Origin: Dehalococcoidia bacterium
GTDB lineage: Bacteria; Chloroflexota; Dehalococcoidia; Lucifugimonadales; JAGWBF01
Direction of reading: 5' to 3'
Length of the DNA: 64,000 nt
Assembly: GCA_034422875.1 (NCBI GenBank)
Contig: DAOUJI010000107.1
Coordinates: 6,260-70,259, forward strand
The notes beneath the pieces are model-generated. The model was not told where the DNA came from. It ran no database searches and saw only the letters and a list, made by a program, of their open reading frames with translations. This document shows positions 60,063 through 64,000 of this stretch, piece by piece. Position 1 is the first letter of the stretch, and each line of letters begins with the position of its first letter. The translations under genes were made by a program, and so were the position numbers.

Positions 60063-60100
60063 CTGCACAAATTGCAAGTAATACTTTCAATCTACGCATT
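60063..60100 (+). repeat. 38-nt direct repeat, copy L (just beyond the 3' end of the AAA ATPase gene)
   Basis: CTGCACAAATTGCAAGTAATACTTTCAATCTACGCATT compared with copy R at 61325..61362. Confidence 0.75.
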
Positions 60101-60112
60101 TTGGGCGCGTGA

Positions 60113-61303
60113 TTAAGGCTCCGCAGTGTTTTGATTCAATTCAAATCTTTCCAAGACCTGAGGGAAATCGCGCAACGGCGTTATCTCGACGTCGCTCCGA
60201 GACTGCCGGGCCGTTCCTCCATATACCACCGCCCTTCCAGATATCTCGGGAACTAACTCAGACACGCGATTGAGGGAACGGAAGAAGTCGGAAGAAATAG
60301 TTGAGCCAGACTTGACCTCGATGGCGCATATGCCGTTACCGCTTTGATAAAACAGGTCACATTCCAGTCCCCGGGAGTCACGGAAGAAAGATAGATTAGG
60401 TTGCAGCCCCCGATTGGTGCGGCTTTTGAGGGCTTCGACCACTGCCGCATTTTCAAAGAGCGCTCCACGGAGTGGATGAGAGGCTATTTGCGCAGCATGT
60501 TCGATGCCTAAGAGAAAGCTCGCCAGTCCAACGTCGTAGAAGTACAGCTTGGGAGACTTGACCAGTCGCTTTCGAATATTGGTGAAAAAGGGTTGCAGTT
60601 GAAAAACGATGTAGCTCGCCTCCAACACCGTAAGCCACTCACGGGCCGTGGTGTGGGAAACGCCTGCGTCGTCCCCCAAGGAAGTGAGATTGATCAGCTG
60701 GCCTACACGTCCAGCGCATAGGCGCACGAATCTCCGGAAGGTGGACAGGTTTCGTATCTCACCCAACCGGCGCACATCGCGCTCAACGTAGGTCTCGAAG
60801 TAGTCGCCCAGGGCCTGTCGCGGACTGAGCCCTTGGTCGTGAATCCGTGGGTAGAAGCCCGAGTGCAGGATGTCATCAATTGAATCACCGGCTCCGGCCC
60901 TCTGGCGCTCCACCAGGGAGAATGGCAACAGCCGGACCAGGGCCGTACGCCCTGCCAAGGATTGACTGATGGCGTTGGAGAGCCTGAATTGTTCGCTTCC
61001 TGTGAGCACGAACAGGCCGTTCTGTCTAACTTCGTCAGCGAAGACCTGCAAGTATGACAGCAGCGACGGGACATGTTGCACCTCATCGATGACGGCCCCG
61101 CCGCTGAGTTGGGATATAAGGCCCCTCGGGTCGGATTCCGCGAATTCGCGTTGGTCGGGCGCCTCCAAGTTCACGTACGCCAGGTCGGGAAAGGCTGCTC
61201 GGCAGAGGGTTGTTTTGCCGGACTGCCGGGGCCCGGTAACAGTCACAAATGGGTATTGTTGGAACAGGGAGAGCAGCACGGGTGCGACTTCACGTTCAAT
61301 CAT
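60113..61303 (-). CDS. AAA-family ATPase with DUF4143 domain (COG1373-like)
   Basis: Walker A VTGPRQSGKTTL and the typical architecture and length. I prefer the ATG at 61303 (MIEREVAPVLL); the TTG at 61339 lies inside the repeat. Confidence 0.8.
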   Translation of the reverse strand: MIEREVAPVLLSLFQQYPFVTVTGPRQSGKTTLCRAAFPDLAYVNLEAPDQREFAESDPRGLISQLSGGAVIDEVQHVPSLLSYLQVFADEVRQNGLFVLTGSEQFRLSNAISQSLAGRTALVRLLPFSLVERQRAGAGDSIDDILHSGFYPRIHDQGLSPRQALGDYFETYVERDVRRLGEIRNLSTFRRFVRLCAGRVGQLINLTSLGDDAGVSHTTAREWLTVLEASYIVFQLQPFFTNIRKRLVKSPKLYFYDVGLASFLLGIEHAAQIASHPLRGALFENAAVVEALKSRTNRGLQPNLSFFRDSRGLECDLFYQSGNGICAIEVKSGSTISSDFFRSLNRVSELVPEISGRAVVYGGTARQSRSDVEITPLRDFPQVLERFELNQNTAEP

Positions 61304-61324
61304 AGGCGCCAGCGTAGCTAAATT

Positions 61325-61362
61325 CTGCACAATTTGCAAGTGCTACTTTCAATTTGTGCATT
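61325..61362 (+). repeat. 38-nt direct repeat, copy R (upstream of the ATPase gene), internally palindromic
   Basis: CTGCACAATTTGCAAGTGCTACTTTCAATTTGTGCATT. About 32 of 38 positions match copy L by eye. It is itself an imperfect 35-nt palindrome, TGCACAA...TTGTGCA. Confidence 0.75.
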
Positions 61363-61401
61363 GTAAGGGCGTAAACGGCTGGCCTGGCGTTAAGGAACCG
61401 G

Positions 61402-61468
61402 GCGTTGAGAACGGGCTAAGGGCGGACAAGAAGAGGCTTATGATGGAAACCATGCCAAGAAATTCCTG
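61402..61468 (+). repeat. about 70-nt direct repeat, copy A (downstream of the helicase gene)
   Basis: GCGTTGAGAAC..GGGCTAAGGGCGG..AGAGGCTTATGATGGAA..CAAGAAATTCCTG, related to 63354..63425. Confidence 0.65.
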
Positions 61469-63055: not shown

Positions 63056-63353
63056 ACGGAAACAGACTCCTTGGCATACAGAGGTGACACAGGTGATTCA
63101 GCGCGGGGCGAAAAGACAAGAGTGCGGGGTCTGACGGTCCGTTGCTGTGCGAAACCTTGGCGCGTAAATGGGCGCGCACCCGCTATTGTAACAGACTTGC
63201 CCCAAGACGTATACGGGTGCGGATGTCGGTAACAGCCCAGACTTCGTGAGACATGCGGGCAGTAGGCATGATGCGAGAGGATCCCCCCAATATTGCGCCC
63301 AGACAGCGACTACCGGTAGGCCGGGCGCCGTGAGACATCGTTTTGGGCAGCGG

Positions 63354-63425
63354 GTGTTGAGAACCGGGGAGGGGACGGGCTGACGGCAGGCGGGAAAAGG
63401 CTTATGATGGAACAAGAAATTCCTG
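63354..63425 (+). repeat. about 70-nt direct repeat, copy B (upstream of the helicase and of the TIM-barrel gene)
   Basis: GTGTTGAGAAC..GGGCTGACGGCAGG..AAAGGCTTATGATGGAACAAGAAATTCCTG. Confidence 0.65.
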
Positions 63426-63437
63426 AAGGGGGTCCAA

Positions 63438-64000
63438 GGTGATTATAGGAGCAATCACCAACTCATGGAGGGAACACATTCCCCATACCGACATGGCCCG
63501 AATGGTGGAGCGAGTGCGGAATCGAGGCGCTACTCACATCGAACTGCGGCAAACTTGTTTAGGGCAGTATGAACAGGGCGCGGGAGACGACTGGCGCCCC
63601 GACATAGCCGGGCTGGAGAAGCTGTCCCGAACCTTCCCCACTATGTCATTCAACCTGGCCGCAGGGTACCCTTGTCTGACCCGGGAGCAGGACCCCACCG
63701 AGCCGGTGTTTCAAGCCTGCCTGGAGACTGCGAAGCGAGTCAACCCGGTCACTCCCCGCCTGCGGTTAGTGGACACAACACGCTCCGAGGGATTCTGGGA
63801 GAAGCCTGACGACATACCCGCGACGGCCCTTGGAGTCGCCACCCTGGTGAGGGAAGCCGCCAGCCAGGGCGTTCAACTGTTTCTGGAAAACGGCCCTCAG
63901 CCCATCCGCTCCATGACCTTACTGGTGCAAGAGGTCAGAAACTCCCTTAGCCCGGAAGAAGCGGCCTATTTCGGACTGTGCCTCGACCCAATCAACAGCC
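63438..64000 (+). CDS. partial CDS (runs off right edge), xylose-isomerase-like TIM-barrel / sugar phosphate isomerase-epimerase family
   Basis: Not in the ORF track because no stop lies within the window. A GTG at 63438 follows GAAGGGGG, and the frame stays open to 64000 (VIIGAITNSWREHIP...HIELRQ...LFLENGP...). Confidence 0.5.

What the first reader, a model, noticed from the sequence alone, without database searches (positions are those of the whole stretch)
60063..61362. COG1373-type AAA/DUF4143 ATPase gene bracketed by 38-nt direct repeats, one of which is a 35-nt palindrome
CTGCACAAATTGCAAGTAATACTTTCAATCTACGCATT (60063..60100) lies 13 nt beyond the gene's stop. CTGCACAATTTGCAAGTGCTACTTTCAATTTGTGCATT (61325..61362) lies 22 nt upstream of its ATG. 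The two are about 32/38 identical, with weaker similarity continuing for about 15 nt more. The upstream copy is itself an imperfect palindrome (TGCACAA-N21-TTGTGCA), so it could be an operator or a recombination site. The gene sits in lower-GC DNA between thpR and a helicase. AAA_14/DUF4143 proteins (an ATPase fused to a predicted nuclease-like domain) are multi-copy, poorly understood, and have been noted in defence-island surveys. A cassette-like structure with flanking repeats hints that they move as discrete units.
Basis: partly seen in the sequence, partly recalled or inferred. Interest (0 to 1): 0.6.

Follow-up and report, generated by a model that had tools for sequence, protein, structure and literature searches.

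The report
Self-operator palindrome bracketing a roaming ATPase-nuclease gene
The repeat upstream of this ATPase-nuclease gene (an untested anti-phage candidate) is the gene's own palindromic promoter and probable control site, which travels with the gene across many bacterial phyla; the repeat after the gene is a partly decayed second copy that most likely marks how the one-gene unit was inserted.

Summary
Two 48-nt direct repeats (79% identical; 32/38 over the core) bracket a 396-aa AAA_14/DUF4143 gene (PADLOC candidate PDC-S01). They are the only two copies in the genome.

The upstream copy is not a generic repeat. The same 16-3-16 palindrome lies 18-23 nt before the ATG in 78 of 80 orthologues, from at least eight phyla. 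It holds the -35 box (TTGCAA); a -10 box follows 17 nt later and ends 7 nt before the ATG, so the mRNA is probably leaderless. The palindrome arms co-vary symmetrically. Because only this gene travels with the site, the protein (AAA+, winged helix, intact PD-(D/E)XK motif) most likely binds it and represses itself.

The downstream copy has no -10 box and no gene to drive, and one arm has decayed. Bracketing is a minority state: 77 of 80 orthologue loci show no downstream copy. It recurs independently in another Dehalococcoidia clade, where empty sites keep one degenerate copy, and in one distant homologue. Two more orthologues sit between 73-nt and 177-nt duplications of target sequence.

I read this as a portable one-gene cassette carrying an insertion footprint. 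Congeners lack the gene here, but none offers a clean one-copy empty site. This scan has noted the same pattern on other DNA; I found no published description.

The parts
60063..60110 (-). Downstream copy of the 48-nt repeat (P_down). It consists of an 11-nt lineage-specific flank plus the 37-nt palindrome module (palindrome about 60064-60098). It lies between the stop of the ATPase gene and the convergent thpR stop. The inner dyad TTGAAAGT-ATT-ACTTGCAA is intact; the outer left arm has 3 changes.
   Evidence: 42.9 bits. One search gives 12/16 symmetric pairs. One search shows a full hairpin only on the gene-sense RNA strand (-15.7 against -9.6 kcal/mol). No -10 box follows it and there is no downstream ORF in that direction.
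60113..61303 (-). AAA_14 + DUF4143 gene, 396 aa (PADLOC PDC-S01). It has Walker A GPRQSGKT and Walker B D73-E74, a winged helix (about residues 186-255), and a C-terminal PD-(D/E)XK fold with E284, D316 and E329-x-K331.
   Evidence: Pfam. PADLOC E 5e-91. Invariant residues in 65 sequences. AlphaFold2 model with pLDDT 91.6. Foldseek hits 2fna, 2qen, Can2 and Orc1/Cdc6 bound to DNA.
61311..61316 (-). Predicted -10 box TACGCT. It ends 7 nt before the ATG (61303), which implies a leaderless or near-leaderless mRNA. There is no Shine-Dalgarno sequence.
   Evidence: Read directly from the sequence. The orthologue alignment shows TAnnnT at the same place in the 80-locus consensus. The tool's strict consensus scan does not call this weak box.
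61334..61339 (-). Predicted -35 box TTGCAA, inside the right arm of the palindrome and 17 nt upstream of the -10 box.
   Evidence: the ACTTGCAA columns are 90% or more conserved.
61325..61372 (-). Upstream copy of the 48-nt repeat (P_up). The 37-nt palindromic promoter/operator module spans 61325-61361 and is preceded by the 11-nt flank.
   Evidence: 49.7 bits. It sits at the same distance from the ATG as in 78 of 80 orthologues. Dyad covariation is shown.
61377..61468 (+). S': a roughly 80% identical copy of the promoter/5' region of the gene that starts at 63439 (S, about 63351-63440). It abuts P_up and forms the far edge of the segment that is absent from congeners G001 and G004.

Best explanation
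The 1.26-kb stretch from the palindrome to the stop codon is a self-contained, horizontally transferred one-gene unit. The upstream palindrome (P_up) is its promoter and control site. Its right arm supplies the -35 box. A -10 box 17 nt further on places the transcription start at or next to the ATG, giving a leaderless mRNA that needs no host-specific ribosome-binding site. The dyad symmetry most likely serves as the binding site for the gene's own product, an AAA+ ATPase with a winged helix and an intact PD-(D/E)XK nuclease motif, which would sit over the -35 box and repress its own synthesis. The downstream copy (P_down) is a second copy of the same module plus 11 nt of local flank. It was most likely produced when the unit was inserted or locally duplicated: by insertion with a long duplication, by single-crossover integration at a palindrome-like site, or by tandem duplication followed by loss of one gene copy. 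It has no -10 box and nothing to transcribe, and one arm has started to decay. Together the two copies form a direct-repeat bracket that could delete the gene precisely and leave one copy. Shown: the repeat, its uniqueness in the genome, conservation of the element with the gene across phyla, its dyad covariation, the promoter geometry, variability of the locus among congeners, and recurrence of bracketing elsewhere. Inferred: binding by the protein, repression, the leaderless start, and the way the second copy arose.
For: P accompanies the gene. 80 orthologues at 73-79% aa identity come from Chloroflexota, Actinomycetota, Binatia, Latescibacterota, Nitrospirales, Alpha- and Gammaproteobacteria, Opitutales, Acidobacteriota and Chlorobiota. 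In 78 of them the 37-nt module ends 18-23 nt before the start codon. Nothing upstream of it is conserved. The consensus is tGnaCAAaTTGaAAGTAntACTTGCAATTTGtnca, then 17 nt, then TAnnnT, then 7 nt, then ATG.

Dyad symmetry is maintained by changes on both sides. 84.2% of cells are paired against 71.9% in shuffles; 150 cells changed on both sides against 55.8 expected; 0 of 500 shuffles reach either value, and slid controls pair at most 51%. RNA polymerase alone cannot explain symmetric covariation, and the only gene common to all contexts is the DUF4143 gene.

The protein has a confident winged helix and conserved nuclease residues.

The site is never dispersed. There are two copies in this genome. 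Among 150 other genomes of the order the strict core is found only in G028, where both sites lie upstream of the DUF4143 gene, and in G147, one site not inspected. In five further genomes it occurs only at the DUF4143 locus. The two paralogues in this genome carry their own different repeats, built on a related CTTTCAA/TTGAAAG half-site.

The locus is variable. G003 has 245 bp and no gene here; G001 and G004 carry a different 2.1-kb cargo; G002 also lacks the helicase.

Bracketing recurs independently:
- G171 clade: P copies lie on both sides of the gene, the distal upstream copy resembles the downstream copy more than the promoter copy, and four relatives have empty sites, three of which retain one degenerate flank-plus-palindrome copy between the same flanks.
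- L143: a 43%-identical homologue with the layout P-P-gene-P.
- L053 and L066: orthologues flanked by 177-nt (95%) and 73-nt (81%) duplications of non-P target sequence.

This matches 'insertion with long target duplication', described for restriction-modification genes (PMC2853133).

No integrase lies on the 74-kb contig, and there is no tRNA or Rfam family at the site.
Against: No experiment shows that any AAA_14/DUF4143 protein binds DNA, and no published function exists.

My attempt to link operator variants to residues of the winged helix recovered only clade structure. The top columns flank Walker B, and the recognition helix is nearly invariant.

The -10 box of this particular copy (TACGCT) is weak and fails the tool's consensus scan.

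77 of 80 orthologue loci have no downstream copy, so the bracket is not a regular part of the unit. At this locus no relative shows a clean single-copy empty site; the possible vestige ATTTCGCATTG is not significant. The two copies are only 79% identical, so the duplication is old.

In the G171 clade the downstream copies are as symmetric as the promoter copies, or more so (14-16 of 16 pairs). That hints at function, or at arm homogenisation, rather than neutral decay.
Confidence: 0.6

Rival explanations
1. P_down is a working second operator. The oligomeric AAA+ protein binds both copies and loops out its own gene, or blocks read-through from convergent thpR. On this view the bracket is selected for regulation and is not an insertion footprint.
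For: The inner dyad of P_down is fully intact. Extra copies of P occur at several loci: tandem upstream copies 53-125 nt apart in L095, L096, L107 and L111. In the G171 clade and in L143 the downstream copies remain 14-16/16 symmetric, and they differ from the promoter copy by changes on both arms (CAGATTG...CAATCTG).
Against: 77 of 80 orthologues do without a downstream copy. In this locus the outer left arm has three uncompensated DNA changes (12/16 symmetric). Symmetric arm changes can also arise from hairpin-templated repair without any selection.
Confidence: 0.17
2. The palindrome is a recombination or cleavage site used by the gene's own ATPase-nuclease. On this view, P-gene-P is an autonomous minimal mobile element that homes to palindrome-like sites and duplicates them on insertion.
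For: The PD-(D/E)XK residues are intact. Transfer across phyla happens without any linked integrase or transposase. In L235 and L237 the layout is T-[own P-gene]-T, where T itself carries a P-like palindrome, and the empty sites keep one P-like copy. Long flanking duplications occur at L053 and L066. One full-length P stands alone, without a gene, in L160.
Against: Most copies have a single P. There is no multi-copy spread inside genomes. L053 and L066 duplicate ordinary sequence that has no palindrome. No consistent cut position or short target duplication is visible. No nuclease of this fold is known to act alone as a transposase (my own knowledge).
Confidence: 0.12
3. P_down is retained as an RNA 3' stem-loop that stabilises or ends the ATPase transcript. 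Its resemblance to the operator merely reflects its origin as a duplicate.
For: All three arm substitutions (A>G, C>T, A>G) become G-U pairs on the gene-sense strand. That strand still folds into the full 16-pair hairpin (-15.7 kcal/mol), while the opposite strand does not (-9.6).
Against: The z-score is only -1.9. No U-tract follows, and the terminator scan finds nothing. Three transitions all falling on the permissive side has a chance of roughly 0.04-0.12. Other bracketed loci do not show this pattern.
Confidence: 0.08

Closest known systems
PADLOC phage-defence candidate PDC-S01 (Pfam AAA_14 + DUF4143; COG1373)
   Same: It has the same domain architecture and a strong model match (E 5e-91). 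The family is classed in the PD-(D/E)XK superfamily (PMC3424549). It is reported as the fourth most common defence call in prokaryotes and as frequently transferred (PMC12988326).
   Different: The family has no tested function and no described DNA site. This copy sits among housekeeping genes, not in a defence island.
Controller (C) proteins and C-boxes of restriction-modification systems (e.g. C.PvuII, C.AhdI)
   Same: Both have a palindromic operator over the promoter of a potentially toxic nuclease gene, and both are portable together with that gene. C.PvuII transcripts are leaderless (my own knowledge, not checked here).
   Different: In restriction-modification systems the regulator is a separate small HTH protein. 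Here the presumed DNA-binding winged helix is part of the ATPase-nuclease itself. No methylase partner is present.
Insertion with long target duplication of restriction-modification genes (Nobusato et al. 2000; Furuta et al. 2010, PMC2853133)
   Same: A defence-type gene with no integrase or transposase is flanked by direct repeats longer than 30 bp that are unique in the genome. Orthologues L053 and L066 show the classic form.
   Different: Here the duplicated sequence contains the gene's own conserved operator rather than anonymous target DNA. No relative shows this site with exactly one copy.
Integron gene cassettes with attC sites
   Same: Both are single-gene units bounded by imperfect palindromes.
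   Different: This unit carries its own promoter. The palindrome has no GTTRRRY core. No intI or attI is nearby, and there is no cassette array.
Archaeal Orc1/Cdc6 and the SSO1545/PABY2304-type AAA+ ATPases with a winged helix
   Same: The overall fold of AAA+ domain, lid and winged helix is shared (Foldseek hits 2fna, 2qen and 2qby). Orc1/Cdc6 bind dyad-like origin boxes next to their own genes (my own knowledge).
   Different: TM-scores are low (0.24-0.44) and sequence identity is 10-16%. Those proteins have no C-terminal nuclease domain.

Membership tests
PDC-S01 / AAA_14 + DUF4143 (COG1373) | N-terminal AAA_14 P-loop domain with Walker A and Walker B motifs | tested here: met
   PF13173 E 2.7e-24. 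GPRQSGKT and D73-E74 are invariant in 65 sequences.
PDC-S01 / AAA_14 + DUF4143 (COG1373) | C-terminal DUF4143 domain (winged helix plus PD-(D/E)XK fold) | tested here: met
   PF13635 E 1.3e-48 over the full profile. The model shows the winged helix and an alpha/beta core; E284, D316 and E329 are invariant and K331 is 90% or more conserved.
PDC-S01 / AAA_14 + DUF4143 (COG1373) | Match to the PADLOC family models | tested here: met
   PDLC04790 E 4.7e-91 over residues 1-366.
PDC-S01 / AAA_14 + DUF4143 (COG1373) | Protects against phage | not testable with these tools
   Validation is still pending for most PDCs (PMC12988326). This locus is not embedded among defence genes.
Insertion with long target duplication | Direct repeats longer than 30 bp flank the inserted gene, and the insert holds no mobility gene | tested here: met
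   48-nt repeats. The single gene lies between them. There is no tyrosine recombinase on the contig.
Insertion with long target duplication | A related genome holds the empty site with exactly one copy of the repeat | tested here: not met
   G003 has 245 bp without the repeat, and G001/G004 carry other cargo. The feature is met only in the independent G171 clade, where the single copy is degenerate.
Insertion with long target duplication | The duplicated sequence is target DNA, not part of the insert | tested here: not met
   The repeat contains the operator that accompanies the gene in about 80 unrelated contexts. The feature is met for orthologues L053 and L066.
Integron gene cassette | attC site with GTTRRRY core; promoterless ORF; intI/attI platform or a cassette array | tested here: not met
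   No such core is present at the palindrome ends. The unit has its own -35/-10 boxes. The genome's four Phage_integrase matches lie on other contigs. It is a single unit, not an array.
REP/RAYT-type or MITE-type dispersed palindromes | Many copies scattered through the genome | tested here: not met
   There are two copies only. In 150 other genomes of the order the strict core is seen in only two: G028, both sites at its DUF4143 locus, and G147, one site not inspected.
C-protein/C-box style autoregulated nuclease module | Dyad operator overlapping the promoter of the regulated gene | tested here: met
   The palindrome contains the -35 box, and its position and symmetry are conserved.
C-protein/C-box style autoregulated nuclease module | A dedicated small HTH controller protein binds the operator | tested here: not met
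   There is no separate regulator gene in the unit. Binding by the ATPase's own winged helix is inferred, not shown.

The most novel reading that the evidence does not exclude
AAA_14/DUF4143 genes are autonomous minimal mobile elements. The ATPase-nuclease would recognise its own palindrome, cut at palindrome-like sites, and drive insertion with long duplication of the site. Operator, promoter and attachment site would then be one and the same 37-bp element.
Probability: 0.12. Interest if true: 0.85.

Novelty: new variant of a known kind. Interest (0 to 1): 0.55.

Why it matters
AAA_14/DUF4143 (PDC-S01) is among the most frequently called defence candidates in prokaryotes (PMC12988326), yet it has no known ligand, target or regulation. 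A conserved 37-bp dyad that travels with the gene gives a concrete, cheap first experiment: does the protein bind its own promoter? It also offers an explanation for how the gene functions after jumping between phyla, through a generic sigma-70-type promoter, a leaderless mRNA and a built-in repressor. The recurrent long direct-repeat brackets extend 'insertion with long target duplication', so far described for restriction-modification genes, to another nuclease family. They also raise the testable possibility that the operator doubles as an insertion site.

Tried and rejected
1. Generic dispersed repeat: rejected.
2. tRNA-linked or integrase-linked integration, or a known RNA family: none found.
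3. Operator-protein covariation to pin read-out on the winged helix: mutual information tracked only the two main protein clades, and its top columns flank Walker B. The result is inconclusive.
4. Metagenome scan with the 19-nt core to count solo palindromes: chance matches dominated such a large collection. Only 8-9 of 80 hits lay next to DUF4143 genes, and one full-length solo site (L160) was seen, so no frequency can be given.
5. Idea that G002's single S element is an S'/S recombinant, proving repeat-mediated loss of the helicase: not supported. The 7-nt difference is a deletion private to this genome's S.
6. Possible vestige of the palindrome (ATTTCGCATTG) after thpR in G001, G003 and G004: too short to be significant.
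7. Looking for the identical protein in other contexts: found only in this same locus.
9. P_down as a promoter or intrinsic terminator: no -10 box, no U-tract, and no scan hit.
Full report
**1. Observation**

The repeat finder extends them to 48 nt (60063-60110 and 61325-61372), 79% identical and 1262 nt apart. The exact upstream 38-mer is not expected by chance in the window. In the whole assembly (2.6 Mb, 140 contigs; the window is C107:6260-70259) there is no third copy, even allowing 10 mismatches.

The gene between them is 60113-61303 on the minus strand, 396 aa. It has AAA_14 plus DUF4143 and matches PADLOC's candidate PDC-S01 at E 5e-91. The ATG at 61303 is the start used by all orthologues (MIERE...). 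The longer TTG-started ORF begins inside the -35 box.

**2. The upstream copy is the gene's conserved promoter/operator**

The genome has three DUF4143 genes, and each has its own repeat just before the start codon:
- This gene has TGCACAAATTGAAAGT-AGC-ACTTGCAAATTGTGCA.
- The C94 paralogue has the perfect 12-7-12 palindrome GGCTAATTCAAAGTTGGATTTTGAATTAGCC.
- The C18 paralogue has five boxes like ACCTTTCAATTGGACG spaced 23 nt apart.

All three share a CTTTCAA/TTGAAAG-like half-site.

For this gene, the search for related loci returned 80 orthologues at 73-79% aa identity. They come from MAGs labelled Dehalococcoidia/Chloroflexota, Acidimicrobiales, Binatia, Latescibacterota, Nitrospirales, Alpha- and Gammaproteobacteria, Opitutales, Acidobacteriota and Chlorobiota. 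Many are complete long-read chromosomes. Several record names suggest sponge or coral holobionts, but that is only an inference from the names. Identity this high across phyla, in unrelated genomic contexts, means horizontal transfer.

In 78 of the 80 loci the same 37-nt module ends 18-23 nt before the start codon, and in 53 of them exactly 21 nt before it. The consensus is tGnaCAAaTTGaAAGTAntACTTGCAATTTGtnca, then TAnnnT, then 7 nt, then ATG. Sequence further upstream shows no conservation.

In this window the elements are:
- TTGCAA at 61339-61334, read as the -35 box
- a 17-nt spacer
- TACGCT at 61316-61311, read as the -10 box
- 7 nt and then the ATG, with no Shine-Dalgarno sequence

The mRNA is therefore predicted to be leaderless. 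This -10 box is weak and the tool's strict scan does not call it. Most orthologues have better boxes, such as TATATT, TATACT and TATCTT.

**3. Dyad symmetry is under constraint**

I tested the 16 symmetric pairs on the 79-sequence alignment. 84.2% of cells are complementary, against 71.9% in shuffles. 150 cells changed on both sides, against 55.8 expected. 0 of 500 shuffles reach either value, and partners slid by 1-3 columns pair at 24-51%.

The inner dyad (TTGAAAGT/ACTTGCAA) is nearly invariant. The outer arms switch between variants such as TGCACAAATTG/CAATTTGTGCA, TGTATAATTG/CAATTATACA and GGACAAATTG/CAATTTGTCC. RNA polymerase can account for the TTGCAA box but not for symmetric covariation. 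Because the palindrome lies upstream of the -10 box, it is not part of this mRNA.

The only gene shared by all these contexts is the DUF4143 gene, so the simplest reader of the site is its own product. The AlphaFold2 model (pLDDT 91.6) shows:
- an AAA+ module
- a winged helix (helices 206-213 and 217-229, with a beta wing at 233-255)
- a C-terminal alpha/beta domain carrying E284, D316 and E329-x-K331, which are invariant or nearly so in 65 sequences

That last motif is an intact PD-(D/E)XK motif, consistent with the family's published classification (PMC3424549). The best Foldseek matches are the archaeal AAA+/winged-helix ATPases 2fna and 2qen, the Can2 nuclease and DNA-bound Orc1/Cdc6.

My attempt to tie operator variants to particular residues failed. 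Mutual information followed only the two main clades, and the recognition helix hardly varies. Binding and autorepression therefore remain inference. I found no paper that describes a function or a DNA site for this family.

**4. The site is never dispersed**

- A weight matrix built from the orthologous sites finds only the two copies in this genome (49.7 and 42.9 bits; next best 11.0).
- The strict 19-nt core occurs in only 2 of 150 other genomes of the order: in G028, where both sites lie upstream of its DUF4143 gene, and in G147, one site that I did not inspect.
- In five further genomes it occurs only at the DUF4143 locus.

**5. The downstream copy**

P_down lies between the gene's stop codon and the convergent thpR stop codon. 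Its inner dyad is intact, and it shares 7 of 11 positions of otherwise unconserved flank with P_up. This points to a local duplication rather than a foreign site. Within the 37-nt module alone it is no closer to P_up than to several orthologues' sites.

No -10 box follows it, and there is no ORF for it to drive. Its outer left arm carries three changes, leaving 12 of 16 symmetric pairs. All three changes are G-U-compatible on the gene-sense strand, which still folds into the full hairpin (-15.7 against -9.6 kcal/mol). This is a weak hint of a 3' stem-loop role.

**6. The locus in relatives**

Within the genus, the interval between thpR and the helicase differs in every genome:

| Genome | Content of the interval |
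|---|---|
| G003 | 245 bp with a hairpin, no gene |
| G001, G004 | a 2.1-kb segment with a PLP-enzyme-like ORF (named from its sequence, not searched) |
| G002 | no helicase either; thpR is followed directly by the next gene's promoter |

The segment private to this genome runs from just after thpR to 61468. It comprises P_down, the gene, P_up and S', a copy of the next gene's promoter region. None of the four congeners keeps a single clean copy of the palindrome, so this locus offers no classic empty site.

**7. How general is bracketing?**

Among the 80 orthologue loci:
- 72 have just the promoter copy.
- 77 show no trace of a downstream copy; their score distribution equals the control.
- L095, L096, L107 and L111 have a second upstream copy 53-125 nt further out.
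- L083 and L104 have copies that enclose the gene together with a neighbouring enolase-superfamily gene. Comparing them with L105 shows that the ATPase gene has changed sides. At the old place, a palindrome is joined to the last 80 nt of the gene.
- L107, L109 and L111 (one Dehalococcoidia clade, a different genomic context from ours) have a copy 26-32 nt after the stop codon.

In that clade five further genomes are filled, typically with two upstream copies and one downstream. In L235 and L237 the distal upstream copy resembles the downstream copy (both carry CAGATTG...CAATCTG), and the promoter-proximal copy differs. The layout is therefore T-[own P-gene]-T.

Four relatives have the site empty. 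Three of them keep exactly one degenerate copy (GTTGAGAATC-GTGCAAATTGGAAGT...GCAAGTTGCAT) between the same flanks.

A 43%-identical homologue on an AT-rich metagenome contig (L143) shows P-P-gene-P, with perfect 16/16 dyads.

Two more orthologues are bracketed by duplications of ordinary flanking sequence: 177 nt at 95% in L053 and 73 nt at 81% in L066. Long direct-repeat brackets around this gene are thus recurrent but not universal. They match 'insertion with long target duplication', described for restriction-modification genes that lack any mobility gene (PMC2853133).

**8. Reading**

Best-supported: a portable one-gene unit with a self-operator promoter. P_down is a footprint of insertion or local duplication. 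It is now partly decayed, but it could still mediate precise loss of the gene.

The rivals are:
- a functional second operator
- a true recombination site used by the nuclease itself
- an RNA 3' hairpin

The data do not exclude any of them, and each has a direct bench test.

**9. Relation to earlier notes of this scan**

The scan has recorded the same pattern on other DNA several times: self-operator palindromes before DUF4143 genes, and direct-repeat-bracketed DUF4143 cassettes. I used those notes as leads only. I re-derived the conservation, covariation, uniqueness and bracket statistics on this gene's own orthologues. I could not reproduce the claim that covariation points to the winged helix.

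Noticed in passing
window 61377-61468 and 63351-63440: Direct repeats of about 90 nt (about 80% identical) flank the DEAD-box helicase gene. One copy (S) is the promoter/5' region of the gene that starts at 63439. Congener G002 lacks the helicase and has a single S directly after a truncated thpR 3' end. This genome's S carries a private 7-nt deletion, so G002's copy cannot be called a recombinant of the two.
   Followed up: partly
L003 (G000:C18) 740-849: The second DUF4143 paralogue of this genome is preceded by five boxes like ACCTTTCAATTGGACG at a rigid 22-23-nt period, running into its start codon.
   Followed up: partly
G000:C94, about 30-60 nt upstream of the DUF4143 start (locus L001): The third paralogue has a perfect 12-7-12 palindrome, GGCTAATTCAAAGTTGGATTTTGAATTAGCC, just before its start codon. 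It has no flanking bracket.
   Followed up: partly
L083 1290-1418, compared with L104 and L105: In closely related Dehalococcoidia (about 92% identical), the ATPase gene lies on opposite sides of an enolase-superfamily gene. L083 retains, at the old position, a palindrome joined to the last 80 nt of the ATPase gene.
   Followed up: partly
L053 (-307..-131 and +276..+452 relative to the gene); L066 (-132..-64 and +65..+137): Two orthologues are bracketed by 177-nt (95%) and 73-nt (81%) direct duplications of ordinary flanking sequence: a gene 3' end in L053 and a hairpin-containing intergenic stretch in L066.
   Followed up: partly
L038, L039, L045, L050, L054, L062, L065, L073, L077, L081, L087, L093, L098, L102, L103: About one in five orthologues encodes a 571-582-aa protein with a C-terminal extension of about 180 aa that matches no Pfam family.
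   Followed up: partly
L031 and L032 (G003:C4 and G003:C1): Congener G003 carries two copies of a frameshifted orthologue on different contigs. Their flanks are identical over at least 160 nt and the upstream palindrome is degraded. They probably lie inside a larger duplicated segment.
   Followed up: no
L160 3599-3635: A full-length palindrome of this type, TCGTGCAGATTGAAAGTTGAACTTTCAAATTGCACGG, stands upstream of a 764-aa ORF that I read as a peptidase (not searched) on a GC-rich metagenome contig. No DUF4143 gene lies within about 3.6 kb on one side and 6.3 kb on the other. It may be a solo site left after loss of the gene.
   Followed up: partly
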